This document shows positions 37,543 to 54,643 of a stretch of DNA of 64,000 nucleotides, piece by piece. The translations under genes and the position numbers were made by a program. This DNA comes from an archaeon (GTDB lineage Archaea; Micrarchaeota; Micrarchaeia; Norongarragalinales; UBA97), in NCBI GenBank assembly GCA_020057405.1, contig JAGVFW010000013.1, positions 32,001 through 96,000 of the forward strand, written 5' to 3'. The first letter of the stretch is position 1, and the number at the start of each line of letters is the position of its first letter. A model generated the notes under the pieces. That model did no database searches and was not told the origin of the DNA. It saw only the letters and a program-made list of their open reading frames with translations.

Positions 37543-37548
37543 CGCAAA

Positions 37549-38493
37549 TCACTTCCTAAGCAGGTTCTCGGCGTCAAGCTCCTCAAACGCGCGAATCATC
37601 ACGAGCGGGAAGGTGATTGTCACGTCGCCGATGACGGTCGCCACGTCGCTCTCGTCCTTGACTTTGCCCCACGACTTGGCTTCATTCGTCGTCGCACCGC
37701 TCATTGAACCTGACGTCTTGTGCGCAGTTGTCATGTAGACGGCGTATTCCGCACCGCCGTTTAGGAGAGTGGCGAGGATGGCGTGGTGCTTTGAAATGCT
37801 GCCGCCGAGGGCGATGACGCCCTTCTTGTCGTCGTGGCTGGTCGCGTAGAGAATGTTTCCGAAGTCCTTGACGACATCAATGACGAAGTCAGGGTGATCC
37901 TGCTGGAAGAGATATAGGTGAAAGCCGAAAGCGCCGTCGGTCACTGCGGGGCAGAAGATTGGCACATTGTTTTTCGCCGCTTGGTAGAGAATAGAGTCCT
38001 CATCGTTTAGCTGCAGGCCGATTTCGCGAAGCATTTCCGAGACTGCCCAGCGCTTTTTCTTGGCGTAGAGGCCGGCGATGACTGGGCGCAGGAGGTTCTC
38101 GAAGTTCATGTAACTCTCGTTCTTCACAAGAATGTTGCCAACGCGGTTGATTCCCTGCTCGTGCAGCTCGACGTCGTCGCGCTCGAAAGTGCCTAACTGG
38201 AAGCGCTCGCCCTTGGCCTTCATTATGTCTTCTTCAATGCCCCCAACGGTGGTGATGACGATGTCCGCCATGCCAAGGCGAATGCATTGTGCAAAGAAGC
38301 CCCTGAGGCCGGAAGTGACCATGTTGGAAGTGAAAGTGAGGAAAATCTTTGCGCCGTCCTTCTTCATTTTCACGATGACGTCTGACGCTTTCTTGAGCTC
38401 GACGCTCTGGTAACCGATTTGCGAGTAGCCGGCGACCAGTTCTCGCACGGTAATGCCTTTTTTCCAAGTAAAGTCCTTAACGTAATCAACCAT
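37549..38493 (-). CDS. deoxyhypusine synthase (or homospermidine-synthesising paralogue)
   Basis: FTSNMVTSGLR, GGIEEDIMK, INRVGN, GSMSGA, EAKSWGK. Confidence 0.92.
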   Translation of the reverse strand: MVDYVKDFTWKKGITVRELVAGYSQIGYQSVELKKASDVIVKMKKDGAKIFLTFTSNMVTSGLRGFFAQCIRLGMADIVITTVGGIEEDIMKAKGERFQLGTFERDDVELHEQGINRVGNILVKNESYMNFENLLRPVIAGLYAKKKRWAVSEMLREIGLQLNDEDSILYQAAKNNVPIFCPAVTDGAFGFHLYLFQQDHPDFVIDVVKDFGNILYATSHDDKKGVIALGGSISKHHAILATLLNGGAEYAVYMTTAHKTSGSMSGATTNEAKSWGKVKDESDVATVIGDVTITFPLVMIRAFEELDAENLLRK

Positions 38494-38637
38494 TGAAATC
38501 ACCTTTATGAATTATGGCGTAAAAGCCAGCGAAGCTGGCGCTAGAAATGAAAAGTAGGAATTACGGACAGTCTTTCTTCTGGTTTAGCATCAAAATCGTT
38601 ATCCCAAAAATAATATGCCCGCCAACGTATTTAAACG

Positions 38638-39088: not shown

Positions 39089-39835
39089 ATGCCAGTAGAA
39101 CGGGTCCAGAGCGGCATTTACGGCCTTGACGAGCTGATTACGGGAGGGTTCCCAAAGGGCCGCACCATCCTCATTAGCGGCGCGTGCGGCACGGGCAAGA
39201 GCATTTTGTGCAGCCAGTACCTCTACCGCGGGGCCGCCGAGTTCGACGAACCCGGAGTTTACGTCGCTTTTGACGAGCGGCCGGAAGAAATTAGGAGCGA
39301 CATGGCGAACTTCGGCTGGGACATCGAAGCAATGGAAAAGAAAGGCAAGCTCGCGATTGTTGACGTTACTAGCGCCAAAGCCGGCGTGCCAAGCGAGGAA
39401 GACCACGCAATCCTCCCAGGCCAGCTTGACATTGACAAGATTCTCGTCGACGCGATTAGCGTGGCGCGCAACATTGGCGCGAAAAGAATGGTTTTCGACT
39501 CTATTCCCTCAATGGCCTTCCGCATGGACACCGTCCACGAAATCCGCAAAGGCATCTTGAAGCTCGCCTACATTTCGGCCAAAGCCGGCTTGACGACGCT
39601 GATTACAACTGAAGCCGAGGAATCGCCTTCCGGCGTTCCAATCAAGTTTTCCCGCTACGAAGTCGAAGAATACGTTGCAGATGGCGTCGTCGTCCTAGGA
39701 CTCTTCGGCGGCGGCCAAAGCGCCTTCCGCACACTCCACGTCCGCAAGATGCGAGGCACCAAACACGCCCTCGAACTCCACCCAATGGAAATAGGCGACA
39801 AGGGAATAACAGTCAAGAAGATAGGCGGAATTTAG
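39089..39835 (+). CDS. KaiC/RAD55-like single-domain ATPase
   Basis: SGIYGLDELITGGFP, GACGTGKS, FDS, EEYVADGV, KMRGTKH. Confidence 0.93.
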   Translation: MPVERVQSGIYGLDELITGGFPKGRTILISGACGTGKSILCSQYLYRGAAEFDEPGVYVAFDERPEEIRSDMANFGWDIEAMEKKGKLAIVDVTSAKAGVPSEEDHAILPGQLDIDKILVDAISVARNIGAKRMVFDSIPSMAFRMDTVHEIRKGILKLAYISAKAGLTTLITTEAEESPSGVPIKFSRYEVEEYVADGVVVLGLFGGGQSAFRTLHVRKMRGTKHALELHPMEIGDKGITVKKIGGI

Positions 39836-40368
39836 CTTCCACTGGTTTTTGGTTTCAAAATAAAAACACACTCTGCTTCCCCAGTACAAACACACTTGGT
39901 TTCTACGCATTCAATCTCTTTGTCATATATTGTCGTAAAAATACCCGCAAAAAAACCCGCTATAAAATAATCCATAACTACCTTGGTCTTTTCGTTTTTT
40001 CGTAAATCATCTTTAGCTAATGAAGAAATTGCTCCGACGATTATACTCCCATCTGGGTTTGAAGAAATTCGGTTTATTTTCGCAAGACCTTGTAACTCCA
40101 CGATATTGCGCCATAACGCTACGCTCTCCATGCCCTTAACCTTAAAACGCTTATCTAAATCCTCGGAAAAATCCTTAGATGTCCTAAAACCCAAAGTGTA
40201 CAGAAGTTTTCCAGATTTGGCACTGTTTCCTTCGTTAAGAAGACTTCTCAAATGAGAGTGGATAGACGCAGGGTATAACAAATACGTAGAGTTGAAAATA
40301 GCCACATCGCCTTCAATAAAGCGCAATTGTTTTGCCATAAGCAATTTTTTAAAAAAGCCGGATAACAA
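39832..40368 (-). CDS. V4R (4-vinyl reductase) domain protein
   Basis: FIAGFFAG..ETKCVCTGEAECVF. Confidence 0.85.
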   Translation of the reverse strand: MLSGFFKKLLMAKQLRFIEGDVAIFNSTYLLYPASIHSHLRSLLNEGNSAKSGKLLYTLGFRTSKDFSEDLDKRFKVKGMESVALWRNIVELQGLAKINRISSNPDGSIIVGAISSLAKDDLRKNEKTKVVMDYFIAGFFAGIFTTIYDKEIECVETKCVCTGEAECVFILKPKTSGS

Positions 40369-40842
40369 CTAAGTCTCCCCACGTATTCGTTTTATTTTTT
40401 CCCACTTTTCAAAATTCAGTACTAAATCGGCTTCTTGGTCGCTAACAATCGTGCTAACCAAAACTTCTCGGATTTTGGGATTACGCACTAGTTTTGATAT
40501 AGAAGCTGAAAGCGCTCGAGAAAACTTATCAGAACGCAATTTTGTAGTAAAATGCGCGGATATTGCTACTGGAACACCCGTCATAATCTCAATAAAGCCG
40601 CCTTTTTCGAAGAGAAACCGCTTGTAAAACTTTTCGCCAACGATATCTTCACCAATGAAACAGGTTTTTTCTCCGAAGTTTCTCTCCAGTGACTTAACGA
40701 ATTCAAACAAAGCACGATCAGTTTCAGATTCTGAATTTTGAGTCGCCAGCGCTACGAGATCCGCAGAGTCCGGCGTATCTGAACCAAAAGGTAGCGCTTC
40801 GGGAAGATCGATTAAAGTCACATACGAGTGTCTTAGTTTCAT
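40369..40842 (-). CDS. hypothetical protein
   Basis: 157-aa ATG ORF with GGAGGT SD, co-oriented with the V4R gene. Confidence 0.7.
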   Translation of the reverse strand: MKLRHSYVTLIDLPEALPFGSDTPDSADLVALATQNSESETDRALFEFVKSLERNFGEKTCFIGEDIVGEKFYKRFLFEKGGFIEIMTGVPVAISAHFTTKLRSDKFSRALSASISKLVRNPKIREVLVSTIVSDQEADLVLNFEKWEKIKRIRGET

Positions 40843-41015
40843 CCGGTACCTCCCACTAACACATTACGCATACTGTAACGCTATTTAAAAACACTAATCT
40901 ACCCGCATCTCAAAAGACACAGCAGACTTAAAAAGAGACCTAGCCTACGGGTATATACGCTAAACGCAGGTAGAAGGAAAGAAACTAACCGATAGTAAAA
41001 AAACTGGGGTAGATT

Positions 41016-42314
41016 TTGTTGAAAAACTTGCAAGTTGGCATTGGCTTTTCGGAAGTAGCAGATTCAAAAAAGGCGGCTAAGGCGGCCTCTGAACAAGCGC
41101 TGAAAACACTTAAGAAAAAGCCAACAATCACCTACGTTTTCTTCGCAGGGGAATACGATCCTAAAGAAATAAGCAGGGGGTTAGTTGAAGCACTTGGCGA
41201 TAGTGAATTTGTCGGGGGTTCCGGTGACGCGGTATTTTTTGAGGACAAGATATACCGGACCGGAATAGTGGTTGCGGCAATATACAGCGAATATCTCCAC
41301 GTAGGAATCTCCTCAATCGAAGGAATATCAAAAGACCCCCACGGACTAGCTAGGAAAGTAACTGCAGAAGCAATGAAGAAAATTGCAATAGACAAGTATG
41401 TAGATCCATACTTACAGTTTACTAGAATGAGAAATAGCAGCATAAAGTGGATGATTAAAAAACCATCATTCCACATTACAGTTTTTGCGAAAGGTATGAA
41501 ATTGCCTCAGATGGGAGAAGAAACCAAAATATTACAAGGAATAACTAGGGAAATGGGATTCAATGTTCCGATTTGGGGGGGCAGTTTCGGAGTACACCTC
41601 GAAAAGCTATTCGAACAAAAACCATACGACATTCACCTCTTACATTCAGGTAAAATACTCACAGACGGCTTAATCGTAGTAGTGAATTCAACAAGTCTAC
41701 TCTACGGACTATCCTTAGCGCATGGTTCGCAACGGACAAACAAAATAGGCTTCATTTCTGGCGTTACGGGGGGCGGGTACGTGATAACGGGAATTTCCGG
41801 TAAAAACCCCATAGACTGGTATTGTGAAAACCTAAACATACCTCGAAAAGAGTTTTTAAAAAATTCCATAGTTATTACTCAGAAAAACCCATTAGGAATT
41901 CCTGACAACTATGGCGGATTTATTATTAGGGCGGGCGGAGTACCCGCTGGAGAAAATCTAGCCTTTACTGCAACGTTCGAAGAAGGTTGGCCGGTATACA
42001 TCATGGATTCGAGCATAAGCAATATGGCCACGGCACCGGGTAAAGTAATCGAAGACCTGCGTGCAAGTACCAACGAAGCAACTCCGGCTCTAGCTCTAGC
42101 AATCATCTGCGCATCATGCAGAATCGTCACAGGAGAAAAAGGCGTCGCCGGAGAACTCAAAGAATTAAAGAAAAAGCTCGGCGGGGCGCCAATCGTAGGT
42201 TTCTCGTCATTTACTGAAATTGGAGCTAAAGAGGGCGTACCCACTACGGTACAGCACGAAGCTACAACCCTACTAACAATTTACGATAAATTGTTGCACG
42301 AAGTTAGGGATTGA
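41016..42314 (+). CDS. FIST-domain sensory protein
   Basis: VGIGFS..AAKAA, FVGGS, PIWGG, HG, PLG, CASC, GFSSFTEI. Confidence 0.85.
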   Translation: MLKNLQVGIGFSEVADSKKAAKAASEQALKTLKKKPTITYVFFAGEYDPKEISRGLVEALGDSEFVGGSGDAVFFEDKIYRTGIVVAAIYSEYLHVGISSIEGISKDPHGLARKVTAEAMKKIAIDKYVDPYLQFTRMRNSSIKWMIKKPSFHITVFAKGMKLPQMGEETKILQGITREMGFNVPIWGGSFGVHLEKLFEQKPYDIHLLHSGKILTDGLIVVVNSTSLLYGLSLAHGSQRTNKIGFISGVTGGGYVITGISGKNPIDWYCENLNIPRKEFLKNSIVITQKNPLGIPDNYGGFIIRAGGVPAGENLAFTATFEEGWPVYIMDSSISNMATAPGKVIEDLRASTNEATPALALAIICASCRIVTGEKGVAGELKELKKKLGGAPIVGFSSFTEIGAKEGVPTTVQHEATTLLTIYDKLLHEVRD

Positions 42315-42325
42315 GTTGAACCTGC

Positions 42326-43873
42326 GTGACACCTATTCGAAACGCAACAATTTTAGTGCTGGGCGGAGCAGGACAAGTAGGCTTCGAATTTTGTTCACAA
42401 ATCCTATCCAAAAATCCACTGAAGCTCATTATTTGCGATATAAATGAGAAAAAAGTTAAGTCTGCCATTAGTAGATTAAATTCAAAAAGTCGTACGACCG
42501 CAAAAATCGGAGAATGGGGAGATATTTTTTCAGATAAACCGACAGCGAAGTCTGCGCTCATTCAAATAAAAAGCAGCATTGTCGAACTGACGAACCGAAC
42601 TGGCGTGCTGGCGGCTAGCGATGCCTCAGATACCTTCCTTTACAAGCTGATATGCAAATACAAGCCCGACATCCTTGTTGATGCGGTCAATACAGCTACT
42701 GCACTGGCTTACAAAGATAGTCGCGAATCAAAAACGCGCGAATCTACGCAACAAAACGACCTACCAGAACCGGTGCCGATTATGCAATTAATTCGACACA
42801 CGCAAGTGTTGTTTCAGGCGTTCAGAAAAGCACAAACTAAGGAATATATAAAAATAGGAACTGGCGGAACCGGCGGCCTTGGTTTCACTTTGCCATATAC
42901 ACACGGTGAAAATGAAGTTCCGTCAAAACTCCTAATGAGTAAATCTGCCGTTGCAGGCGCGCAAACCATGCTTTTGTGGGTTTTGGCAAGAACTCCAATG
43001 ATGCCAATAATAAAGGAAATTAAAGTTACGGCACTCATAGGATGGAGAGAAATTGGGCGGGGTGAATTCACCATCGACTCCGAACCAATCGCACTCTATG
43101 ATTGCCCAATTGAAAAGAGCCTAACTATCAGCGATGCGCTAAAAAAACACAATTCAATCAGATTAAATAAAAATCTACACGGGACGTGGATTGACACTGG
43201 AGAAAATGGAATATTTACTAAAGATATGTTCGCGGCTATTACTTCGAGAAACAACATGGAGCTAATTACTCCAGCAGAAATAGTCAAAATAATCATAGAC
43301 GAAATTGAAGGCAAGCACACCGGGAAAGACACAATATCGGCCATGGATAATGCAGTACTTGGCCCTACACTAATCGGAAGCGGAATGCGGCAAGTCGCTA
43401 TAGATCGAATGAAGGATGACGACGAAGTTGTGGCAAGTATACCGACGCTAGGCCCCCTAACGGCAAAAATATTGTGGGAAGCCGCATTACTGAAAACCTC
43501 TTTCGAGAATATCGATCAAGTAATAAAAGAAAATGAAAAACATATATCGGAAAGGACTTTTGAAAAAATAAGCAGAGATCAAACGCTGAGAGCTAAAATA
43601 ATATCCATAGGAATACCCATCCTCTTACCTTCTGGTAAGCTTCTTCGCGGTCCAACTATATCAATTCCAGATCAGAGTCGAGTATCCTCAAACCTGCGAG
43701 ATGTCGAGACTTGGGCCGCCACTGGCTGGGTAGACCTTAGGCCTAAAAACTGGCTGCTTTGGAAAACCTGGCTCCGCGACTATCGCACATCTAATAACAA
43801 TTCATTCAATATCGGCGAGATTTGCGGATGGATTTTTGCGCATAAGCTTGGCGGAATGAGGATAAAACGGTGA
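42326..43873 (+). CDS. uncharacterised Rossmann-fold NAD(P)-binding oxidoreductase
   Basis: VLGGAGQVG, DAVNTAT, IGTGGTGGLG..PYTH, SKSAVAGA, DTGENG, GWVDLR. Confidence 0.75.
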   Translation: MTPIRNATILVLGGAGQVGFEFCSQILSKNPLKLIICDINEKKVKSAISRLNSKSRTTAKIGEWGDIFSDKPTAKSALIQIKSSIVELTNRTGVLAASDASDTFLYKLICKYKPDILVDAVNTATALAYKDSRESKTRESTQQNDLPEPVPIMQLIRHTQVLFQAFRKAQTKEYIKIGTGGTGGLGFTLPYTHGENEVPSKLLMSKSAVAGAQTMLLWVLARTPMMPIIKEIKVTALIGWREIGRGEFTIDSEPIALYDCPIEKSLTISDALKKHNSIRLNKNLHGTWIDTGENGIFTKDMFAAITSRNNMELITPAEIVKIIIDEIEGKHTGKDTISAMDNAVLGPTLIGSGMRQVAIDRMKDDDEVVASIPTLGPLTAKILWEAALLKTSFENIDQVIKENEKHISERTFEKISRDQTLRAKIISIGIPILLPSGKLLRGPTISIPDQSRVSSNLRDVETWAATGWVDLRPKNWLLWKTWLRDYRTSNNNSFNIGEICGWIFAHKLGGMRIKR

Positions 43874-45027
43874 TAACTAACTTCGAGGAGCTTTTAACAA
43901 CATCCTCACGCACATTAGACCCGAAACAGATTTCACCAGCCGTATGGGCTTCAAAAAATTGGGAAAAACTAGATAGGAAAAGTACTGAAACGACCCTTCT
44001 TCCGTTTATTAAGTTTCAAATTAATCGCGCTGGCAAAGCAATGCCAGATATTTACTCGCCATACACGAAAAAAAATACGCCAATAAACGAGTTTGAAGAT
44101 TTTTTTAATTTACCTGCACTAGTAAAAGACACGGGAACCCACTCCATCGGATTTAGAGAAAAGGTCAAACTTAATCCGTATATACTATTACCAAAAGATA
44201 CGAGTTCAGCTACGGTCGTCTATAAATCAGGCGGTACTCGGGGTACAGCCACTCCCACGTTTCTAACCACTTGGGATCACGAAGTTGAAGCGCTTTCCTT
44301 AAAAAAGTGCTTCGAGTATATGGGAATAAAGAAAGATGTGGTTGCGCTTAATTCTTACAATCCGACACATAAAGGCGGACAACTGATTACCAATGCACTC
44401 TTAGCTCTGGGCGTAAAAGTTATACCTAGGCGTACAACCGATACGCCAACAGAAATGATTAACACGATAAAAACCTACGGCGTATCAATGTTAGCAACAG
44501 TACAAGGCCCACTTAGTGAAGATGATAATGTTCGAAAAGGCGCAGGGATAGATTTCCTATCACTTATTGAAGCGGGACAAGATGTACTCGAACAACACTT
44601 AGACTTGTTGTTCATTACCGGCTATTCGCTCATTCCGGAAGTTATTGCTTGGTCAGAAAGTAATAAAAAAAACCTCGCTACGTGTTTAGGTTCTTCGGAA
44701 GCAATTCCCCAAGCAACTAGCACAGTAAAAGGTACAAAGTGCAAATACAACAACCTGCACCTGATTAACGGCCCCCACTACCTCGAAATCGTAAAGCTGG
44801 AATCTGGAACACTCGTTCCAGTAAAACGGGGAGAAACTGGCCTGCTACTATACACCACCATTGCAAGAGACGGTACGATATACATCCGATACGCTCCGGG
44901 TGACGCGGCAACACTAACGGCTTACGGTGGAGAATGCGACTGTGGAATACGTACACCCATCATTTCAAATATTCGAAGAATAGATATACCTGAAGATACT
45001 ATTGCCGCCGGCTGTTGCATAGGGTAG
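43870..45027 (+). CDS. LuxE-like acyl-protein synthetase / AMP-forming ligase
   Basis: SGGTRG, LGSSE, RYAPGD; ends in AGCCIG with no CoA-ligase C-domain. Confidence 0.75.
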   Translation: MITNFEELLTTSSRTLDPKQISPAVWASKNWEKLDRKSTETTLLPFIKFQINRAGKAMPDIYSPYTKKNTPINEFEDFFNLPALVKDTGTHSIGFREKVKLNPYILLPKDTSSATVVYKSGGTRGTATPTFLTTWDHEVEALSLKKCFEYMGIKKDVVALNSYNPTHKGGQLITNALLALGVKVIPRRTTDTPTEMINTIKTYGVSMLATVQGPLSEDDNVRKGAGIDFLSLIEAGQDVLEQHLDLLFITGYSLIPEVIAWSESNKKNLATCLGSSEAIPQATSTVKGTKCKYNNLHLINGPHYLEIVKLESGTLVPVKRGETGLLLYTTIARDGTIYIRYAPGDAATLTAYGGECDCGIRTPIISNIRRIDIPEDTIAAGCCIG

Positions 45028-45032
45028 AACAA

Positions 45033-46454
45033 ATGACCCACCTAAAATTTAACAACTATATAGGCGGAAAGGAAGTTCTACTTTCAGGACAAACTTTTAC
45101 AGTTGAAAGCAGCATATATCCCGACTATCAGTTTCTAGCTCCTGAAGCGGGACTATTTGATATTAAAACGGCAATTTCTAAGGCGCGTACATCTGTAAAA
45201 GACTGCCACGCACTTACCTTTAGCGAACGAATAGAAATACTTGAACGAGCGGCGGCTTCTTTTTCGCCAACTGCAACTGATTTCGAGTTCGCTGTCAAAA
45301 CCACAGGCATGCCCATATCAAATGTTAGGTCTTTTTCAGAAGATATTCGAAATATTTACCGCAATGTACCGATTGCTATAGAAAAGCACATAGGCCGGCT
45401 GGGCGACCGGTTCGGACATGACCTTAGACACTCAGAAGGCACCGTGCATTTTGAACCAATAAATGGAATAGTATATGCAATTACGCCAGGTAACGATATT
45501 CGCGTAACCGCATTCATTGCAAGTTGGCTAGTAGCCTTAGGAATACCCGGAATATTTAAATGCTCAAAAAACGACCTCGCGTTTGCTAATAAAACTTTAC
45601 AAAAGTTAGTCGAGGCGGGCTATCCGGAAGGCGGTCTTAACCTGCTTTGTTGGGATACACAAAAAAAGGAAAATGCTAAATTAAATTTCGAATTGGTAGA
45701 TTCTTCGAAAGTTGTTTGGGCATATGGAGCCGATTCGACCGTTGATTTCATGCTTCGATTTGAAACAAAATCTGAAAACCAAGTTTTAGATCACTTTTCG
45801 GACAAAACCATACTAAGACATGCAACCGGAAGAACCGCAGCTATATCCTCTCCGAAAACAGACATCGAAAAAGTATCTGAACGCGCGACTACCTCCGCTT
45901 TAACTTGGCCGATTGGTTGTAACTCGCTAAAAGCACTATTTAACGCATCCAACAAAAACACCGAGGTTGTTAGCGCCCTAACGGAAAAGTTCGAGCAACT
46001 TGCTAAACATACCGGCGACCCCATGAAAAACACTACGAAGATAGGCTTCACGGAACCAAAACTACTAGCCCAGGTGTGGAACAGAATAAATGACCTCAAA
46101 AAAACCGGTCAGCTTAGCTTGCTTACTGGAGAAAAAATTAGTGAAAGACAATGCACGCCGCTACTCTTAGAAACTCTCGACCTTAATTCGGAATTCCTAA
46201 ACACTGAATTTTCTACTTATCTACTAACTATCAAAAACTGCTCCGGGTTTAGTGAAGCGATAGATGAGGTCAATGTAACTTCAGGTGCGAATAGACGACT
46301 CGTAGTAACTGTTTTTTCTTCTGAAAATGAAAAACTCGGAAGAATTCACGCGCACCGAATAAATATGAACACCATAACAACCGATCTCGACCTATTATTT
46401 CAAGAAGGAAACGACTACTTTAGCAAACTGACTACGCCCCAACTTCATAAATGA
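45033..46454 (+). CDS. LuxC-like acyl-CoA reductase / ALDH-fold protein
   Basis: ERIEIL, PGN, KCS, AYGADSTV, GCNS catalytic Cys. Confidence 0.75.
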   Translation: MTHLKFNNYIGGKEVLLSGQTFTVESSIYPDYQFLAPEAGLFDIKTAISKARTSVKDCHALTFSERIEILERAAASFSPTATDFEFAVKTTGMPISNVRSFSEDIRNIYRNVPIAIEKHIGRLGDRFGHDLRHSEGTVHFEPINGIVYAITPGNDIRVTAFIASWLVALGIPGIFKCSKNDLAFANKTLQKLVEAGYPEGGLNLLCWDTQKKENAKLNFELVDSSKVVWAYGADSTVDFMLRFETKSENQVLDHFSDKTILRHATGRTAAISSPKTDIEKVSERATTSALTWPIGCNSLKALFNASNKNTEVVSALTEKFEQLAKHTGDPMKNTTKIGFTEPKLLAQVWNRINDLKKTGQLSLLTGEKISERQCTPLLLETLDLNSEFLNTEFSTYLLTIKNCSGFSEAIDEVNVTSGANRRLVVTVFSSENEKLGRIHAHRINMNTITTDLDLLFQEGNDYFSKLTTPQLHK

Positions 46455-46468
46455 ACGAATAGAACGCA

Positions 46469-47242
46469 TTAAAGCTTCAAAACGTCTTCATCGGAAACAA
46501 ACTCGATTCCGCTCTTTGAAAATCTATACGATAACGCCTTCCGTTCATGATCAGTATACCTCATTTTTCTAACTTGCAAAGATCGAAATTCGGCAGTACC
46601 TATTCCAAAAAAACTCAGGAAAATTACACCATCGGCAAGAAATTCTGAAATTCCGTCCGAACTCATACCTTTTCCTCGCTCTGGCAATTCTGAAGTGAGA
46701 AAAATTGTCGCACCCAACGCCCTTAGACTAGAAATAACCGTAGCTAACATTCGCTTAGTCATAGTTTTCTCCGAAGTACTCCTAGGTGGAATTTTATCTA
46801 AACTTCGTGAAGGCACCCCTCCGCGCTTAAGCAATACTTCCTTTGCAAAATCAGATACCAAGGCAAACTCAGAAAAAGTACTCATAGAGTCTAAAACCAG
46901 CCGTTGCGGAGAAAACTGACGAATCGCAGTGAAAATTTCGCTCAAAAAAGACTCGTCCTTTAATATATCTACATAAACTATTTTGAGCAAGTTTTTATCT
47001 ACCCAAAGATTCAAATCCCACCCGTATTGGGCAGCTTGCTTATTCAATTCTTCAAACGTCTGTTCGGTTGAAACGTACATACTTCGCTCATTATTTGCTA
47101 TCCCCTGAAGTAAGAAATGCAAACATAAGGTACTCTTACCAGTTCCGGCCCCCCCCGAAATTAATACTACGTTCCCCTTAGGAATGCCCCCACTAATGGC
47201 CTCATCCAAGCCGATAATGCCAGTTTTAACTCTCTCAATCAT
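46469..47242 (-). CDS. KaiC/RAD55-like single-domain ATPase
   Basis: TGIIGLDEAISGGIP, GGAGTGKS, LDS, EFLADGV, KMRYTDH. Confidence 0.93.
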   Translation of the reverse strand: MIERVKTGIIGLDEAISGGIPKGNVVLISGGAGTGKSTLCLHFLLQGIANNERSMYVSTEQTFEELNKQAAQYGWDLNLWVDKNLLKIVYVDILKDESFLSEIFTAIRQFSPQRLVLDSMSTFSEFALVSDFAKEVLLKRGGVPSRSLDKIPPRSTSEKTMTKRMLATVISSLRALGATIFLTSELPERGKGMSSDGISEFLADGVIFLSFFGIGTAEFRSLQVRKMRYTDHERKALSYRFSKSGIEFVSDEDVLKL

Positions 47243-47263
47243 CGAGATACTTAGGCTTGCCCA

Positions 47264-48154
47264 TTAAAAAAGCATATCGGATCGGGTAGCTTTACCCCGT
47301 TTGAATCCACCTTTAGTCGGGCCTACCTCAAACACGCATTTTTGGTCGCCTTTTGCTATGCACTTGGTTTCTTTTGCTTCGATTGCTGGGTCACCATACA
47401 TTACGGCGAATCCTCCCGCTAGGCAGCCGCGCAGAAAATCGTCCACAGGCTCCTTGCTTTTTCCGAAACGATTAAGGTATTCGACTGCGAAGGGAGAATA
47501 ATCTACTGTGACGAAAGCGGTTTTATTTGCCGTATCTATCTGCTCGATGTTTAGACTCCCCCAGCCGACTATTGAGAGCGTGTCAATGCCGTGCTGGAGT
47601 TCTACATCCAAGTCGCCACGGGTTACGCCCGTTCTACGCATTTCAGAATACCAACTGACGCTCATATCTCTTACCGTTTTGTAAAGAAGGCCGGGCTTCT
47701 TTTTGAGTTCAATGTGCCAAAGTAGGTACTGATACATCGGAATCATGCAAATCTTGTGCCCAAATAAGTAAAGCTCATCCTTCGACAGGGTGAGATTTCC
47801 ACTAAGCAAAAGATGTTTGAGCAGCGACAATGCCCTAAATGCAGAAAACATCCGGCCCTTGGCCGGAATGGCGAAAAAAGTTTTTGAATCGGAAGACGCC
47901 TGTATTGTCGAAATTTCTTGCGCCAAATTTCCCAACCAAACGCGATTAATAGAATAACCGGCATCATCTTTCACTAGCATTCCGGCGGCGGCCATTTCGC
48001 CGAGCGCCTTGTGTACGCCTTGGTAGGTAGCTTTGGTGCCTTCCTTTTGCACTGCCTTGAACGTTTCTTTTGCCGTTAGGGGCGCTTGCTCGGAGAGCGC
48101 GTTAAGCGTGGCGCCTTTCACACCGCCCAATGCAGAGCCTAGGACTGAACTCAT
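47264..48154 (-). CDS. wHTH-V4R transcriptional regulator
   Basis: N-terminal PLTAK..TYQGVHK; C-terminal GWG..SPF..RGCLAGG..ETKCIAKGDQKCVF. Confidence 0.85.
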   Translation of the reverse strand: MSSVLGSALGGVKGATLNALSEQAPLTAKETFKAVQKEGTKATYQGVHKALGEMAAAGMLVKDDAGYSINRVWLGNLAQEISTIQASSDSKTFFAIPAKGRMFSAFRALSLLKHLLLSGNLTLSKDELYLFGHKICMIPMYQYLLWHIELKKKPGLLYKTVRDMSVSWYSEMRRTGVTRGDLDVELQHGIDTLSIVGWGSLNIEQIDTANKTAFVTVDYSPFAVEYLNRFGKSKEPVDDFLRGCLAGGFAVMYGDPAIEAKETKCIAKGDQKCVFEVGPTKGGFKRGKATRSDMLF

Positions 48155-48978
48155 TTTCTCCCTCCGCACAGTGCAATCGTTTCTTTCTTTAGTTGGTCGG
48201 CGAGGGCTTGGTTGCGGATGACTGCAACTGGCACTCGCGCCTTTTTCATGAAAACCGCCTCGTAGAAGCTGTCGACATCGAAGTCGCTCATTTTGGAGGC
48301 GGAGTTGTAGACTTTGTCGAGTGCTTTCTTGAACTCGAGCGGGTAGTAGACGCGCACAACGAAGTCCTTGTAGACGACGGTATCCGTGCTCGTCGCTTCC
48401 TTCACGCCAATCCGGTGCTTCAGCTTGGAGTTCTTGCGCCAGTAGTCCGCGCACCAGCGGTCAAGCGGCGTGTCGGCAGGCGTTATCGAGTAGCTGTCGG
48501 ACACGCTTACCAGCTCCTTCATGCGCAAGTAAGTCTCGCGGTTGAGGAACAGGGGAACCCAGAAGTGGCACCACTGCAGCGCCAGTACCTTGTCCTTTGG
48601 GTCAAAAACCTTCTGCGCGAAAGAGACAAGGAAATCGTCAACCTCGGCAACAGAATCAAAAAAAAGCACCGACTGGCCGGCGGGCATGCTTAAACCGGTC
48701 TTCGAATAGGAAGACTTGAGCTCGTCAGAAAACCGTGAGAGTCCATCAATCCAATCAAAGGAAAGAGAGTAACCCTCTGGAGAACGGGAAATCACGCCCT
48801 CCAAAGAAAGCTCGCCTAAAGACTTGTGGATTGCCTGATAAGTAAGGTGCGTTCCGTTCTTCGCAATTGCGGAATGGATTTGCTTGGCAGAGAGCGGCCA
48901 CTTGGCAGAGAGAACACTGATAATCGCGCTTTTCGCGTCCGCTTTTCCTCGACTGCCTAGAGTAGGTAATTCAATCAT
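48151..48978 (-). CDS. wHTH regulator paralogue
   Basis: WPLSAKQIH..LTYQAIHK..YSLSFDWI; start MIELP overlaps the upstream stop. Confidence 0.8.
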   Translation of the reverse strand: MIELPTLGSRGKADAKSAIISVLSAKWPLSAKQIHSAIAKNGTHLTYQAIHKSLGELSLEGVISRSPEGYSLSFDWIDGLSRFSDELKSSYSKTGLSMPAGQSVLFFDSVAEVDDFLVSFAQKVFDPKDKVLALQWCHFWVPLFLNRETYLRMKELVSVSDSYSITPADTPLDRWCADYWRKNSKLKHRIGVKEATSTDTVVYKDFVVRVYYPLEFKKALDKVYNSASKMSDFDVDSFYEAVFMKKARVPVAVIRNQALADQLKKETIALCGGRK

Positions 48979-49826
48979 TTCCTTCCCCTCCTGAACTCGG
49001 CGAGCGTTTCGTCGATGATTTGTTTTGCCATTGCCTTGTTGCGGGTGATGACTACTGGGACTTTCATGCGGGCGCCGATTCCGACGAGCACGTAGTCGTA
49101 GACGACACGCATTACGCTGGCCGCTGACTGGGACGAGAAAGTCAGGTGCATGAACTTTTTGAATGCGGGGGGCCAGTAGATGTTGATTACGTAGTCGTTG
49201 AAGGCGAGCACGTCGCACGCTTCGGCAACGTCAACACCGGCAAGCCATTTGAGGGCTATTGGACCCTCCAAGTACTTCAGGCAGTAAATGTCCCCAGGTG
49301 AGTTGCCTCGGCAGAGAGCGTAATTGCCCTTGCTTTTCTTGAATCTGGCCATTTTCTTGTATTGCTCCTCGCCAACCATTTGCGCCGCCCAAGCGAACCC
49401 GCAGTGCTGCACAATCACGCTCTTGCCTGCGGCGATTGGAGGCATCTCATCAATGACCCAATAGGGGGCGGAGATTATGCCCGTAAAAGTGTAGGAAACC
49501 GAAGAGTTGGGAGGAATTTCCAAGAGACGAGGAGGCTCTCCGCCCGAATATCGCTTGCTAGCGTCATTCCACCAAGCTTTCTGCGCTTCGACCCACCCTG
49601 GCGAAAGCGAATATCCTTCCGGCAAGCGCGAGATAACGCCATCGGCCGACAACTCGCCCAAGACCTTGTGCACCGCTTGGTAAGTAAGTGGCTTGCCGCC
49701 GTCCTTTGAAACTACAGCGTGCAACTGCTTTGCAAACAAGGGCCATTTGACTGCTAGCGCGTTGATCACGCGCGAGCGGGCGTCATGCCTGCCGCTTGCG
49801 AGCAGTCCCGCGTTAAGTTCAGCCAC
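48975..49826 (-). CDS. wHTH regulator paralogue
   Basis: WPLFAKQLH..LTYQAVHK..YSLSPGWV. Confidence 0.8.
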   Translation of the reverse strand: MAELNAGLLASGRHDARSRVINALAVKWPLFAKQLHAVVSKDGGKPLTYQAVHKVLGELSADGVISRLPEGYSLSPGWVEAQKAWWNDASKRYSGGEPPRLLEIPPNSSVSYTFTGIISAPYWVIDEMPPIAAGKSVIVQHCGFAWAAQMVGEEQYKKMARFKKSKGNYALCRGNSPGDIYCLKYLEGPIALKWLAGVDVAEACDVLAFNDYVINIYWPPAFKKFMHLTFSSQSAASVMRVVYDYVLVGIGARMKVPVVITRNKAMAKQIIDETLAEFRRGRK

Positions 49827-50721
49827 TGCGCTTGCCTCCGGTTTTGAAGTGCGTTGCCAGCTTCCTTCTCATTTCTCTTGCAAGCGCGGCGTTTCGGGTG
49901 ATGACTAGCTTGATTTTGAATTTCTTTTGGAAGCAAATCTTGTAGAGGGAATTGAGGTCCATGATTTTTTTTATCATGTTCTTACTGAACCACGCCATTA
50001 CTTCGGGGGGCGTGTAAATCTGGACGATAAAATCGCCGAAAACCACGGAGTCTACCTTGTTTGCAGGGTCGGTGCCCATAACGTAGGGCGTGCCGAAACC
50101 ACGCTTCCAAAACTCTAGAGTGAACCTATCGAGAAAGAAGTTCGTCGTGCACACGAGCCTTGTGCGGGCCGAGGAAGTAAGCTGCCTGATTTCATCATAC
50201 TCTTTCTTGCTAACAATAAAGACCGGCCAGGCGCCGTACATCACGATGAAAACATCGCCCTCGACCCTGTGCTTGAGAGTATACTCCGCCATCTCGGAAA
50301 GAACCCAGTAAAAGGGCGCGGCCAGACTCTCGTTAAACTCCACAGTTGTGCTGGAATCAGGCGCAATGTCGGCAAACGAAATGCGGTCAGGCGAGACGTG
50401 ACGCACTTCCGCCTCCTGCAAAAACTTCTTAGAACGCGAAATCCAGTCAAGAGACAAACGATAATTGCTAGAAAAATTGCGCTCAAGCACGCCCTCAGAA
50501 GCAAGGCGCCGAACCACCTTGTGGACGGCCTGGTAAGTCAACTGCTTGCCGCCGTCAGATAAAAGAAGCGAGTGAACATGCTTTGCGGACAACGGGGACT
50601 TTCTAGCCAGTGCCGAGATTACACGCGAGCGGGCGTCACGGCGCCCCGACGCTAGGACACTTTCCGAAAGCCCCCGATCTAAGTTGCCAACCAAACCCCA
50701 AACCACCACTCCGCAGGACAC
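49819..50721 (-). CDS. wHTH regulator paralogue
   Basis: SPLSAKHVH..LTYQAVHK..YRLSLDWI; start uncertain. Confidence 0.8.
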   Translation of the reverse strand: MSCGVVVWGLVGNLDRGLSESVLASGRRDARSRVISALARKSPLSAKHVHSLLLSDGGKQLTYQAVHKVVRRLASEGVLERNFSSNYRLSLDWISRSKKFLQEAEVRHVSPDRISFADIAPDSSTTVEFNESLAAPFYWVLSEMAEYTLKHRVEGDVFIVMYGAWPVFIVSKKEYDEIRQLTSSARTRLVCTTNFFLDRFTLEFWKRGFGTPYVMGTDPANKVDSVVFGDFIVQIYTPPEVMAWFSKNMIKKIMDLNSLYKICFQKKFKIKLVITRNAALAREMRRKLATHFKTGGKRSG

Positions 50722-52807: not shown

Positions 52808-52809
52808 GA

Positions 52810-52840
52810 CAATCAACTTTTAGTTGATTGTGGTTCTACC
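52810..52840 (+). promoter_or_regulatory. palindromic operator, copy 2
   Basis: CAATCAACT-TTT-AGTTGATTG (perfect 9-bp arms) then TTCTACC. Confidence 0.8.
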
Positions 52841-52875
52841 CAACAAATAAGATTCTGCAAAAATAAAACAAGTTA

Positions 52876-54344: not shown

Positions 54345-54380
54345 GTTAGTTTTCAGATTGTCGAAATCCCGACATTCCAC

Positions 54381-54450
54381 CAATCAACTTTTAGTTGATT
54401 TCAATTCTACCGAGCTAATTTATTCCGGCACTTCCACAATAATTTCGACA
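54381..54450 (+). promoter_or_regulatory. shared operator/promoter block, copy 3
   Basis: AATCAACT-TTT-AGTTGATT, TTCTACC, and the same downstream block as copy 1. Confidence 0.78.
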
Positions 54451-54643
54451 TGGATGCGCGGGCCAACAAAGTAAAAACACGGGGGCGCTTATTTTCATTA
54501 AGGCGTTCACTGCGGCCAGCGCCAAAATCTCCTCTTCTTAAGTTCGAGCGGGAACCGGCAGCGGAAGGGTTGCCTACCAAAAGCGGATTGCCTCAAAGCG
54601 TATCCGCGCCGGTTGCCCGACTTAAAGGGGACAACGGGAGCAC

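What the first reader, a model, noticed from the sequence alone, without database searches (positions are those of the whole stretch)
39089..48154. Candidate small-molecule signalling system: KaiC-V4R-FIST sensors wired to their own biosynthetic operon
Seen: two inward-facing KaiC-like ATPases bracket a visibly AT-richer block. A divergent promoter drives [unknown, V4R] leftward and [FIST, Rossmann enzyme, LuxE-like, LuxC-like] rightward, and a wHTH-V4R regulator lies upstream of the second KaiC. Established: archaeal KaiC-like ATPases are proposed signalling hubs with V4R/FIST partners, and V4R and FIST bind small ligands. Inference: the enzymes make or convert an acid/aldehyde/alcohol ligand that the sensors read. 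This would be an autoinducer-like or host-sensing circuit; I know of no description of this combination.
Basis: partly seen in the sequence, partly recalled or inferred. Interest (0 to 1): 0.82.

Follow-up and report, generated by a model that had tools for sequence, protein, structure and literature searches.

The report
Sensor-linked acid-reducing operon in DPANN archaea
A small symbiotic-type archaeon carries a foreign-looking gene block in which enzymes that probably turn an organic acid into an aldehyde and then an alcohol sit with several ligand-sensor-type proteins, KaiC-like ATPases and DNA-binding regulators, and the same block recurs in related archaea.

Summary
The block 39832-47242 has GC3 of 0.36-0.41 against 0.64-0.75 in the flanks.

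Three labels need correcting:
- "LuxE-like" is a PaaK-like adenylate-forming enzyme; 0 of 19 family members match Pfam LuxE.
- "LuxC-like" is an aldehyde-dehydrogenase-superfamily protein with only a borderline LuxC match.
- The wHTH call is only weakly supported.

I fetched 41 related loci by the adenylating enzyme. In the closer group (n=26):
- FIST lies directly upstream in 19 of 22 loci with enough sequence.
- The ALDH-like gene follows in 20 of 21.
- 10 of 14 loci of 10 kb or more hold FIST, the unknown 157-aa protein, V4R and KaiC together.

The third enzyme varies: three reductase families, three aminotransferase classes, or a membrane protein. That points to a carbonyl intermediate. 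The "unknown" protein is a new domain that elsewhere forms the tail of receptor-like surface proteins.

The module is rare (8 of 401 sampled genomes of the phylum) and patchy. My best reading is a metabolite-sensing, KaiC-centred regulatory unit coupled to acid-to-aldehyde-to-alcohol/amine chemistry. The autoinducer and host-sensing claims remain untested.

The parts
39089..39835 (+). kaiC1: single-domain KaiC-like ATPase with native GC3 (0.69). It is the orthologue of the KaiC genes linked to the module elsewhere.
   Evidence: PF06745 E 1.3e-67. Walker A GACGTGKS. It is 52-60% identical to KaiC genes next to the module in L003, L103, L115, L116, L121 and L122, against 35-37% to the genome's own paralogues.
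39832..40368 (-). V4R_s: stand-alone V4R-type small-ligand-binding protein, 178 aa.
   Evidence: PF02830 E 4.5e-10, 39.9 bits. E156, C159 and C167 are invariant (E-x2-C-x7-C) in 13 orthologues. GC3 0.36.
40369..40842 (-). unk157: member of an undescribed roughly 150-aa domain family. There is a 0-bp gap to V4R_s.
   Evidence: No Pfam, NCBIfam or PDB hit. There are 102 representatives in 1.84 billion proteins, including C-terminal fusions to receptor-like proteins. Alignment A4.
40843..41015 (.). 173-bp divergent intergenic region between unk157 and FIST, presumed to hold promoters in both directions.
   Evidence: Sequence printed. A/T-rich TATA-like stretches are visible by eye. No inverted repeat of 12 nt or more. 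No conserved block against the equivalent spacer of L116.
41016..42314 (+). Stand-alone FIST protein (FIST_N + FIST_C), first gene of the enzyme operon and the most conserved gene of the module.
   Evidence: PF08495 1.9e-17 and PF10442 3.1e-12. It is 76-77% identical to L003 and L108, where the enzymes are 50-63% identical. It is the only FIST gene in the genome.
42326..43873 (+). 515-aa NAD(P)-type reductase of family PF27054 (Beta_methylindole_red_C). It is the variable third enzyme of the module.
   Evidence: Precomputed PF27054. The family name comes, via homologue P0032. N-terminal Rossmann hits. It is present in 6 other module loci. In 80 of 80 bacterial loci it stands alone.
43870..45027 (+).
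   Evidence: Profile against PDB PaaK 4r1l gives E 6.3e-15, and the alignment ends at residue 327 of 436. AMP-binding in 16 of 19 members and LuxE in 0 of 19. S120-G-G and C291, C356, C358, C382 are invariant.
45015..46454 (+).
   Evidence: Aldedh in 22 of 22 members and LuxC in 9 of 22. C302 aligns with the catalytic Cys motif of ALDH 8hap, and N160 and K182 are near-invariant.
46469..47242 (-). kaiC2: second single-domain KaiC-like ATPase with low GC3 (0.38), last gene of a five-gene minus-strand row.
   Evidence: PF06745 2.2e-48. Walker A GGAGTGKS. Best relative is 46% identical, next to the module in L119.
47264..48154 (-). Putative one-component regulator: an N-terminal wHTH-like domain of about 95 aa plus a C-terminal V4R domain.
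   Evidence: V4R 31.1 bits. The N-terminal domain is shared with three downstream paralogues and with FIST fusions. wHTH is only weakly supported. A 39%-identical orthologue lies next to the module in G005.
48151..50721 (-). Three tandem paralogues (48151-48978, 48975-49826, 49819-50721) with the same N-terminal wHTH-like domain and an unassigned C-terminal domain of about 190 aa. They overlap each other by 4-8 bp.
   Evidence: Pairwise blastp gives 29-34% identity over the full length, E 1e-33 to 1e-48. Spacing. Seven such genes stand in tandem next to the module in L119.

Best explanation
This is one copy of a conserved, horizontally mobile module of Micrarchaeia-type DPANN archaea. The module couples a small enzymatic pathway to a KaiC-centred sensory and regulatory set.

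**Enzymatic core (inferred chemistry).** The PaaK-like enzyme adenylates a carboxylic acid. It probably carries the acyl group on its invariant C-terminal Cys. The ALDH-superfamily partner uses its catalytic Cys and NAD(P)H to release the aldehyde. A variable third enzyme then converts a carbonyl to an alcohol or to an amine. Here that enzyme is the PF27054 reductase. Elsewhere it is an ApbA-type or SDR reductase, or a class I/II, III or IV aminotransferase. Alternatively, the third enzyme prepares the acid from an amino acid through its 2-oxo acid.

**Sensory set.** It consists of the stand-alone FIST protein, the stand-alone V4R protein and the new 150-aa domain protein, together with the KaiC-like ATPases and the wHTH-like one-component regulators (wHTH-V4R here, wHTH-FIST in relatives). 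These most likely bind a substrate, intermediate or product of the pathway and set transcription of the operon and/or activity of the enzymes.

**Shown:** gene identities at family level, tight operon packing, conserved linkage, foreign composition, and modular exchange of the third enzyme.

**Inferred:** the direction of the chemistry, the ligand, all protein contacts, and the output.
For: **Linkage.** I fetched 41 loci by the adenylating enzyme, not counting the window.
- In the group at >=47% identity (n=26), FIST is adjacent upstream on the same strand in 19 of 22 loci with >=1.3 kb upstream.
- In that group the ALDH-like gene follows in 20 of 21 loci with >=600 bp downstream.
- 10 of 14 loci of >=10 kb hold FIST, unk157, V4R and KaiC together.
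- In a 401-genome sample of the phylum, all 8 genomes with the ligase also have FIST (12 genomes in all), and the two genes are adjacent. unk157 occurs in 10 genomes.

**Sensor and enzyme parts are separable.** G251 has FIST, unk157, V4R and KaiC genes but no ligase hit in an 84%-complete genome. Distant loci have the ligase-ALDH pair alone.

**FIST and V4R serve as input domains of DNA-binding proteins in these lineages.**
- wHTH-like-FIST fusions stand next to the module in L103 (two), L110, L115 and L117.
- A roughly 90-aa wHTH-like gene lies directly upstream of FIST in 12 loci.
- The wHTH-like-V4R regulator is present here and in G005.

**Chemistry.**
- The ligase profile matches PaaK at E 6.3e-15 and lacks PaaK's last ~100 residues. 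It ends in an invariant G-C tail.
- The ALDH partner keeps the catalytic Cys, Asn and Lys motifs.
- Non-homologous reductases and three aminotransferase fold classes take turns in the operon: PF27054; ApbA in L103; SDR in L137; class IV in L114, L115, L117 and L118; class I/II in L116, L120, L134 and L135; class III in L003.
- In passages I read from PMC5925218, an ApbA/PanE-type reductase (CxnC) is proposed as the functional equivalent of Ind2 in reducing a 2-oxo acid that an aminotransferase makes. In passages from PMC8246080, Ind2 is an NADH ketone reductase followed by an ATP-dependent coupling step.

**Packing.** Overlaps or gaps of 21 bp or less occur within each transcription unit.

**Horizontal origin.** GC3 is 0.36-0.41 against 0.64-0.75. 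Distribution is patchy across families. A native-GC copy fragment exists in the sister genus G005.
Against: - No ligand, activity, interaction or expression datum exists. Everything functional is inferred from families and gene order.
- The direction of the enzymes is open. PaaK-type ligases and ALDHs also work together oxidatively, from aldehyde to acid to acyl-CoA.
- The ligase matches no LuxE model (0 of 19), so the acyl-Cys mechanism rests on an invariant C-terminal Cys and on recalled LuxE biochemistry. Four invariant Cys (C291, C356, C358, C382) could instead form a metal site.
- The link from PF27054 to the Ind2 reductase is read from the family's name only. The model is not in the local library.
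- FIST is more conserved than the enzymes (76-77% against 50-63%). That would also fit a structural or catalytic subunit.
- 2 of the 22 closer loci with upstream sequence (L124, L125) have no FIST at all, a third (L120) has none adjacent upstream, and most distant loci have none.
- The 157-aa protein has no recognisable fold.
- The wHTH assignment is weak. The best PDB hit has E 0.0071, and one paralogue hits Penicillinase_R below its cut-off.
Confidence: 0.5

Rival explanations
1. Autoinducer-like or host-directed signalling circuit. The enzymes synthesise a diffusible aldehyde, alcohol or amine that leaves the cell. The FIST, V4R and KaiC set of the same or neighbouring cells reads it back, giving density- or host-dependent control.
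For: - The same linkage evidence as above applies.
- The sensor set sits in the same operons as the biosynthetic-looking enzymes.
- The unk157 domain recurs as the tail of proteins with an N-terminal hydrophobic segment, Ig-like domains and a membrane segment. That architecture is receptor-like and fits cell-surface signalling.
- The carriers are genome-reduced DPANN archaea, plus Omnitrophica and Parachlamydiales going by source names. Partner sensing would matter for such organisms.
Against: - No exporter or secretion gene is conserved in the module. A membrane protein is found only in four loci (L099, L100, L102, L123).
- All window proteins look soluble.
- Nothing shows that the product leaves the cell.
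- The receptor-like fusions were not found in the 401 sampled genomes of this phylum.
- Linkage of sensors to enzymes is equally expected for ordinary substrate or product control.
Confidence: 0.12
2. Substrate-inducible salvage or catabolic operon run in the oxidative direction. An amino-acid-derived aldehyde or 2-oxo/2-hydroxy acid taken from the host is oxidised by the ALDH. The PaaK-like ligase then activates it to an acyl-CoA or acyl-AMP for assimilation. V4R and FIST regulators sense the incoming substrate, as the V4R domains of phenol-responsive activators do.
For: - The ligase's nearest solved relatives are phenylacetate-CoA ligases.
- The partner's strongest matches are ordinary aldehyde dehydrogenases: Aldedh in 22 of 22 members, best PDB hit E 8.8e-31.
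- Aminotransferases and 2-oxo-acid reductases fit amino-acid breakdown.
- V4R shares its three-Cys cluster with the phenol sensor domains of PoxR and MopR (passage in PMC5847659).
Against: - The ligase lacks the C-terminal part of PaaK beyond residue ~327 and instead carries an invariant terminal Cys.
- By motif register, the ALDH's general-base Glu position appears to be His in the family consensus. I did not verify this structurally, but it would disfavour thioester hydrolysis.
- No downstream acyl-CoA-using genes are conserved in the loci.
Confidence: 0.2
3. FIST, V4R_s and unk157 are not sensors here. They are non-catalytic subunits of the acid-reducing enzyme complex, acting as substrate carriers, chaperones or scaffolds, with KaiC-like ATPases as assembly or remodelling factors.
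For: - FIST is the first, translationally close gene of the enzyme operon, and is more conserved than the enzymes.
- The alignment of 20 FIST orthologues has many invariant polar residues, including His, Asp, Glu, Arg and Cys.
- None of the three stand-alone proteins has an output domain.
Against: - The FIST, unk157, V4R and KaiC set occurs without the enzymes in G251.
- The enzyme pair occurs without these proteins in distant loci.
- The same FIST and V4R domains are fused to the wHTH-like DNA-binding domain next to the module.
- unk157 is also the tail of receptor-like proteins.
Confidence: 0.1
4. Chance juxtaposition. Unrelated signalling genes and a metabolic operon merely share an island, with no functional tie.
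For: - The block is compositionally foreign, and islands collect unrelated cargo.
- KaiC-family genes are common in archaea; the control genomes all give matches.
Against: - Linkage is conserved across at least five families of the class and many metagenomic contigs. Gene order is rearranged but membership is kept.
- The sole FIST gene, the sole unk157 gene and 2 of 3 V4R genes of the genome are in the block.
Confidence: 0.03

Closest known systems
KaiC-like ATPase signalling neighbourhoods of archaea (Makarova, Galperin & Koonin 2017, mBio). I know this paper only through citing passages in PMC5847659 and a reference list. The paper itself is not held.
   Same: Single-domain KaiC-family ATPases are encoded beside small-ligand-binding and DNA-binding proteins. 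A proposed role as hubs of an archaeon-specific signal transduction network is stated in the citing passage.
   Different: Here the KaiC, V4R and FIST set is tied to a fixed enzyme pair (PaaK-like ligase plus ALDH-like enzyme) and to a new 150-aa domain. I could not check whether that paper or its supplements list this combination.
Bacterial LuxC/LuxE fatty-acid reductase and carboxylic acid reductases (mechanism recalled, not from a call)
   Same: An ATP-dependent acid-activating enzyme of about 370-390 aa with a Cys near its C-terminus is paired with an ALDH-related reductase that has a catalytic Cys. The genes are adjacent and overlapping.
   Different: No member of the ligase family matches Pfam LuxE (0 of 19). 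The LuxC model matches 9 of 22 partners and is always weaker than Aldedh. No LuxD-type transferase was seen. The accessory enzymes point to amino-acid-derived acids rather than fatty acids.
Early steps of indolmycin and chuangxinmycin biosynthesis: aminotransferase, then the Ind2 or CxnC ketoreductase, then ATP-dependent activation (passages read in PMC8246080, and PMC5925218)
   Same: An aminotransferase, a 2-oxo-acid reductase (Ind2-type or ApbA/PanE-type, described there as functional equivalents) and an ATP-dependent carboxylate-activating step act in series. The module uses the same enzyme kinds interchangeably.
   Different: The module has no methyltransferase or coupling partner. It has an ALDH-type enzyme instead, so the end product would be an aldehyde, alcohol or amine rather than an oxazolinone. 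The tie of PF27054 to Ind2 rests on the family name only.
V4R sensor domains of phenol-responsive regulators (PoxR, MopR), mentioned in PMC5847659
   Same: A V4R domain with a conserved Cys cluster acts as a small-molecule input for transcription control of a metabolic operon. The E-x2-C-x7-C spacing is present. Its identity with the MopR zinc site is recalled, not tested.
   Different: The output here is a wHTH-like domain, or none at all in the stand-alone protein, with KaiC-like ATPases rather than a sigma-54 AAA+ activator.
NosP-type stand-alone FIST sensors co-transcribed with a signalling enzyme (recalled; NCBIfam NosP model hit E 8.7e-6, far below its cut-off)
   Same: A stand-alone FIST_N + FIST_C protein without an output domain is encoded in an operon with its presumed partner.
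   Different: The score is 25 bits against a cut-off of 450, so it is not a NosP orthologue. No haem or NO link is evident, and the partners are enzymes and KaiC rather than a histidine kinase.

Membership tests
KaiC/RadA-like ATPase family (PF06745) | Full-length match to the KaiC domain model above its cut-off | tested here: met
   kaiC1 scores 228 bits and kaiC2 165 bits against a cut-off of 26.6.
KaiC/RadA-like ATPase family (PF06745) | Intact Walker A P-loop | tested here: met
   GACGTGKS in kaiC1 and GGAGTGKS in kaiC2.
KaiC/RadA-like ATPase family (PF06745) | Hexamer formation, ATPase activity and autophosphorylation | not testable with these tools
   This needs protein work.
V4R domain (PF02830) | Match above the gathering score | tested here: met
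   V4R_s scores 39.9 bits. The regulator scores 31.1 bits against a cut-off of 31, which is borderline.
V4R domain (PF02830) | Conserved Cys cluster | tested here: met
   E156, C159 and C167 are invariant in 13 orthologues. The cluster is described for V4R in a PMC5847659 passage.
FIST sensor (PF08495 + PF10442) | Both FIST_N and FIST_C are present above their cut-offs | tested here: met
   64.2 and 47.2 bits against cut-offs of 23.2 and 28.5.
FIST sensor (PF08495 + PF10442) | Binds a small ligand | not testable with these tools
I saw no solved relative.
LuxE acyl-protein synthetase (PF04443) | Match to the LuxE family model | tested here: not met
   0 of 19 family members match, even at E<=10.
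LuxE acyl-protein synthetase (PF04443) | Acylated Cys close to the C-terminus (recalled feature) | tested here: inconclusive
   An invariant Cys lies four residues from the end (C382), but its role is unknown. Four invariant Cys could also form a metal site.
PaaK-like / ANL adenylate-forming enzymes | Homology to the N-terminal adenylation domain with the Ser/Thr-Gly-Gly P-loop-type motif | tested here: met
   PDB PaaK 4r1l at E 6.3e-15 over profile positions 33-382. AMP-binding in 16 of 19 members. S120-G121-G122 are invariant.
PaaK-like / ANL adenylate-forming enzymes | Complete C-terminal domain | tested here: not met
   The alignment to PaaK stops at residue 327 of 436, and the protein ends about 15 residues later.
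LuxC acyl-CoA reductase (PF05893) | Match to the LuxC model as the best family | tested here: inconclusive
   The window protein scores 21.1 bits against a cut-off of 21, and 9 of 22 members match. Aldedh is always stronger (65.4 bits; 22 of 22).
Aldehyde dehydrogenase superfamily (PF00171) | Catalytic Cys, oxyanion Asn and cofactor Lys motifs | tested here: met
   C302 is invariant; N160 and K182 are near-invariant. They align with the corresponding motifs of ALDH 8hap.
Aldehyde dehydrogenase superfamily (PF00171) | General-base Glu before the G-G motif | tested here: inconclusive
   By motif register, that position is His in the family consensus. The printed alignment does not cover it.
PF27054 (Beta_methylindole_red_C) reductases | Match to the family model | tested here: met
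   A precomputed PF27054 is listed for the window protein and all 120 listed homologues. The name was obtained through homologue P0032. The model is not in the local library, so I did not re-score it.
Autoinducer / quorum-sensing circuit | Signal is released and sensed in a density-dependent way | not testable with these tools
   No expression or metabolite data are available, and no sequencing run was listed.
Known anti-phage defence systems (PADLOC) | Match of the components to defence-system models | tested here: not met
   9 of 10 proteins have no hit. kaiC2 gives only weak P-loop hits.

The most novel reading that the evidence does not exclude
A DPANN-specific small-molecule communication system. 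The ligase-ALDH pair and its variable partner make an amino-acid-derived aldehyde, alcohol or amine. Stand-alone FIST and V4R proteins read it through a KaiC-like ATPase hub. The new 150-aa domain acts as the adaptor that also couples Ig-domain surface receptors to the same hub. This would be a first molecular handle on how ultra-small symbiotic archaea sense partners or their own density.
Probability: 0.12. Interest if true: 0.9.

Novelty: new variant of a known kind. Interest (0 to 1): 0.62.

Why it matters
- **KaiC hubs.** KaiC-like ATPases are proposed to be the main archaeal signalling hubs. I met no defined input ligand or output for any such neighbourhood in the papers I could read.
- **A testable unit.** This module ties the hub to a short, fixed enzyme pair and to three ligand-binding-type proteins. 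It therefore offers a compact, expressible system of about ten soluble proteins. Substrate, product, ligand and KaiC response can be tested together.
- **The organisms.** It occurs in genome-reduced DPANN archaea. A conserved ten-gene investment in a genome of about 1 Mb implies an important function, possibly linked to the host-dependent life style.
- **A new domain.** The work also defines a new domain family (unk157). Its fusion to receptor-like surface proteins suggests a wider, unrecognised signalling connector.

Tried and rejected
**Structure and complex prediction**
- Complex prediction (FIST + V4R_s + unk157) was unavailable. No fold or interface evidence exists.
- The ESM Atlas could not read the window's own proteins. 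Through homologue P0032 it gave the PF27054 name. Through homologue P0247 it gave only matches with TM below 0.5 to a low-confidence model. I discard those.

- I did not use the look-up of encoding contigs, which is stated as closed. The genomic context of the receptor-like unk157 fusions therefore could not be seen.

**Searches that led nowhere**
- A single-protein scan of genome contigs found nothing. The alignment scan worked.
- Bacterial neighbours of the PF27054 enzyme: no neighbour family is present in more than 15 of 80 loci, so no functional hint came from them.
- unk157 against V4R by hhalign: probability 0.5%, no relation.
- The 318-aa gap gene against the PF27054 family: no relation.
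- My first alignment of 'gap genes' (A5) mixed two unrelated families, a class IV aminotransferase and a membrane protein. I separated them.
- The membrane protein (A11) has D-rich motifs that reminded me of UbiA-type prenyltransferases. No tool supports this and I dropped it.
- Inverted repeats in the promoter regions: none.
- Bacterial-type promoter and terminator scan: below shuffles, and not relevant to archaea.
- Spacer alignment with L116: no conserved block.
- PADLOC: no defence system.
- Sequencing runs: none was listed and no RNA holder was listed.

**Literature**
- The Makarova 2017 paper is not held by DOI or PMC id.
- Supplements are closed. Its neighbourhood tables might already list this combination.
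- For PMC9563170 and the other hits, I saw only the search listing.

Full report
**What is in the window**

The window lies in a 1.22-Mb, 17-contig genome that is 90.6% complete. Its nearest named relative belongs to Candidatus Norongarragalinales, class Micrarchaeia, which is DPANN.

Between 39089 and 50721 I find twelve tightly packed genes:
- kaiC1 (+).
- V4R_s and unk157 (-, 0-bp gap between them).
- A 173-bp divergent spacer.
- FIST, a 515-aa reductase, a PaaK-like ligase and an ALDH-like enzyme (+, gaps of 11, -4 and -13 bp).
- On the minus strand, converging on the ALDH gene: three paralogous wHTH-like genes, the wHTH-like-V4R gene and kaiC2 (overlaps of 4-8 bp and a 21-bp gap).

Pfam and NCBIfam confirm KaiC (twice), V4R (twice), FIST_N + FIST_C, an N-terminal Rossmann fold and an ALDH fold.

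**The AT-rich block is real and sharp**

GC falls to 0.40-0.45 between about 39.5 and 47.5 kb, against 0.52-0.57 outside. Third-position GC is 0.36-0.41 for the seven genes V4R_s through kaiC2. It is 0.69 for kaiC1, 0.51 for the V4R regulator and 0.64-0.75 for the flanking genes. No tRNA lies nearby.

A sister genus of the same family (G005) carries part of the same module at native GC of 0.53. The fragment holds the ALDH-like 3' end, unk157, V4R_s, the wHTH-V4R gene and a wHTH2 paralogue. The low-GC copy here therefore looks like a replacement or acquisition from another lineage. The module itself is not new to the family.

**Is the clustering more than chance?**

The genome holds four full KaiC-family genes, three V4R genes, one FIST gene and one unk157 gene. 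Two, two, one and one of these lie in this block.

kaiC1 is 52-60% identical to KaiC genes that flank the module in six other loci. It is only 35-37% identical to the genome's own paralogues. It therefore belongs to the module by orthology, despite its native composition.

I collected relatives in two ways. The first was whole-genome searches in the order and the phylum, with stretches cut out. The second was a metagenome scan seeded with an alignment of the ligase family. Together these give 41 loci with a ligase hit, not counting the window.

In the 26 loci whose ligase is at least 47% identical:
- FIST is adjacent upstream on the same strand in 19 of 22 loci with at least 1.3 kb upstream. 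The misses are L120, L124 and L125.
- The ALDH-like gene follows on the same strand in 20 of 21 loci with at least 600 bp downstream. The miss is L101, where it lies nearby on the other strand.
- Of the 14 loci of at least 10 kb, 10 contain FIST, unk157, V4R and KaiC together. The misses are L102 (its V4R hit fell just under the threshold in this run but was seen at E 9e-5), L110 (no KaiC), L120 and L124.

In the 15 more distant loci, the ligase-ALDH pair persists in 10 of 11 testable loci. FIST is present in only 4 of 7.

At genome level, in a 401-genome sample of the phylum:
- The ligase is found in 8 genomes, FIST in 12 and unk157 in 10.
- All 8 ligase genomes have FIST next to the ligase.

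Gene order is shuffled between lineages. G020 has one six-gene operon: FIST, reductase, ligase, ALDH, unk157, V4R. The G373 type has unk157, FIST, ligase, a membrane protein, ALDH and V4R, with a convergent KaiC. Membership is kept throughout. Linkage is therefore conserved and the idea is not refuted.

**The parts are modular**

- G251 has FIST, unk157, several V4R genes and several KaiC genes together. It has no ligase hit in the genome, which is 84% complete.
- Distant loci have the enzyme pair alone.
- The 515-aa reductase belongs to a large, mainly bacterial family: 2476 hits among the 8000 candidates scored and 571 confirmed genome loci. In 80 of 80 bacterial loci, none of the other nine window proteins lies within 10 kb.
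- In the order-level sample, the reductase is found in 2 of 31 genomes.

**What the enzymes are**

*The ligase family.* It matches solved phenylacetate-CoA ligases (profile E 6.3e-15 to 4r1l). The alignment stops at residue 327 of 436, and the protein ends about 15 residues later.
- 16 of 19 members hit Pfam AMP-binding. None hits LuxE, even at E<=10.
- The P-loop-type S-G-G motif and four Cys (C291, C356, C358, C382) are invariant. C382 lies four residues from the C-terminus.
- A C-terminal acyl-Cys is how I recall LuxE working. That resemblance is a lead, not a membership.

*The partner.* It is an ALDH-superfamily protein (22 of 22 members; LuxC model in 9 of 22).
- It has an invariant Cys that aligns with the catalytic Cys motif of a solved ALDH. 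The Asn and Lys motifs are near-invariant.
- By motif register, the general-base Glu position appears to be His. I could not verify this.

*The reductase family.* It is PF27054. The Atlas labels it Beta_methylindole_red_C, through homologue P0032. I read this name as pointing to the Ind2-type 3-methylindolepyruvate ketoreductase. Passages describe Ind2 as an NADH-dependent ketone reductase acting after a transaminase and before an ATP-dependent coupling step (PMC8246080). This link is an inference from a name.

**The variable third enzyme is the most informative feature**

In place of, or beside, the PF27054 reductase, related modules carry the following:
- An ApbA/PanE-type reductase: L103, in two pieces.
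- An SDR: L137.
- Class IV aminotransferases: L114, L115, L118 and L117.
- Class I/II aminotransferases: L120, L134, L135 and L116.
- A class III aminotransferase, divergent from the operon: L003.
- A conserved polytopic membrane protein: L099, L100, L102, L123.

Passages in PMC5925218 propose an ApbA/PanE homologue (CxnC) as the functional equivalent of Ind2, reducing a 2-oxo acid made by an aminotransferase. Non-homologous reductases and aminotransferases taking turns argue for a carbonyl compound at the centre of the pathway. That compound could be the aldehyde made by the pair, which is then turned into an alcohol or an amine. Or it could be a 2-oxo acid derived from an amino acid that feeds the pair. 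I favour the reductive direction (acid to aldehyde) because of the truncated ligase with its terminal Cys. The oxidative direction remains a serious rival.

**The sensory set**

- V4R_s has the invariant E-x2-C-x7-C pattern. A cited passage notes a three-Cys cluster shared by V4R and the phenol-sensor domains of PoxR and MopR (PMC5847659).
- FIST is the best conserved gene of the module (76-77% identity where the enzymes are 50-63%).
- In related loci, FIST is preceded by a highly conserved wHTH-like gene of about 90 aa. This holds in 12 loci. The gene is absent from the window.
- Proteins that fuse the wHTH-like N-domain of the window's regulators to FIST stand right next to the module in L103, L110, L115 and L117.
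- So in these archaea the same DNA-binding-type domain is combined with V4R, with FIST, or with an unassigned domain of about 190 aa. The last type has three tandem copies here and seven in L119. This is the pattern of one-component regulators with exchangeable input domains.
- The wHTH nature itself is only weakly supported. There is no Pfam hit at E<=1 for the window's regulator. One paralogue hits Penicillinase_R at E 0.0098. The best PDB profile hit is the Hop2 winged-helix domain at E 0.0071.

**The unknown 157-aa protein**

It has no Pfam, NCBIfam or PDB relative and no relation to V4R. A profile search of 1.84 billion representatives finds only 102 relatives. The family includes three forms:
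- Stand-alone forms of about 150 aa.
- Forms of about 225 aa with two C-terminal hydrophobic segments (5 of 5 examined).
- Ten long proteins of 449-1548 aa in which the domain is C-terminal.

In all ten long proteins, a hydrophobic segment lies just before the domain. Eight of ten also have an N-terminal hydrophobic segment. Four of ten have bacterial Ig-like domains by Pfam. That is the layout of a single-pass surface receptor with this domain as its inner tail.

The sources give no names for the five long proteins I looked up. No such fusion was found in the phylum sample. I take the domain to be a signalling connector. This is inference.

**Verdict**

- The core of the interpretation, a sensor set wired to an enzyme operon, is supported by conserved linkage.
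- The specific claims remain untested: that the sensors read the enzymes' product, that the circuit is autoinducer-like or host-sensing, and that KaiC binds V4R.
- No defence-system models match.
- I found no description of the combination in the held literature, but I could not read the key 2017 paper or any supplements.
- I rate it a new variant of a known kind, the KaiC-centred archaeal signalling neighbourhood. It has a well-defined, testable enzymatic partner and a new domain family.

Noticed in passing
window 48151-50721 (-): Three tandem paralogues (about 276-300 aa, 29-34% identical) share the N-terminal wHTH-like domain of the V4R regulator. Each carries an unassigned C-terminal domain of about 190 aa. 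They overlap by 4-8 bp and continue the kaiC2 row beyond the finding's end.
   Followed up: partly
L003:13944-14228(-), L121:2402-2695(+), L117:3823-4167(+) and nine further loci: A highly conserved wHTH-like gene of about 90 aa (63-93% identity) lies directly upstream of FIST in 12 related loci. It has no counterpart in the window (tblastn E<=1e-3).
   Followed up: partly
P0284, P0292, P0305, P0309, P0311, P0318, P0330, P0336, P0338, P0342: The unk157 domain forms the C-terminal tail of long proteins with an N-terminal hydrophobic segment, Ig-like domains and a membrane segment. This is a receptor-like layout. Their taxa and gene neighbours could not be seen.
   Followed up: partly
L103:2395-3987(+), L103:4000-5538(-), L110:6739-8277(+), L115:12375-13937(+), L117:33-1580(+): Proteins of about 512-530 aa fuse the wHTH-like N-domain to FIST_N + FIST_C. 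They sit next to the module.
   Followed up: partly
L152 (G005:C44:1-3113): A genome of the same family holds a fragment of the module at native GC (0.53) on a 3.1-kb contig. Contig breaks explain why FIST and the ligase were not found there.
   Followed up: partly
L099:7186-8142(-), L100:7244-8272(-), L102:11704-12648(+), L123:3769-4707(+): A conserved polytopic membrane protein of about 315 aa lies between the ligase and ALDH genes in one clade. It has invariant charged motifs and no Pfam family.
   Followed up: partly
window 36508-38502 (-): The two native-GC genes upstream of the block look, by eye only, like a PLP-dependent decarboxylase and a deoxyhypusine synthase. I did not test this with any tool.
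   Followed up: no
window 52500-54500: A second, weaker GC dip (0.45-0.48) appears downstream in the composition profile.
   Followed up: no
L156 (G000:C14:98470-99027 region): The genome's third V4R gene (185-aa ORF) lies on another contig between two ORFs of about 435 aa. No KaiC gene was found on that contig.
   Followed up: no
window 50854-51735 (+): A 293-aa ORF has an N-terminal hydrophobic stretch and many N-x-S/T sites. By eye it is a secreted or surface protein.
   Followed up: no
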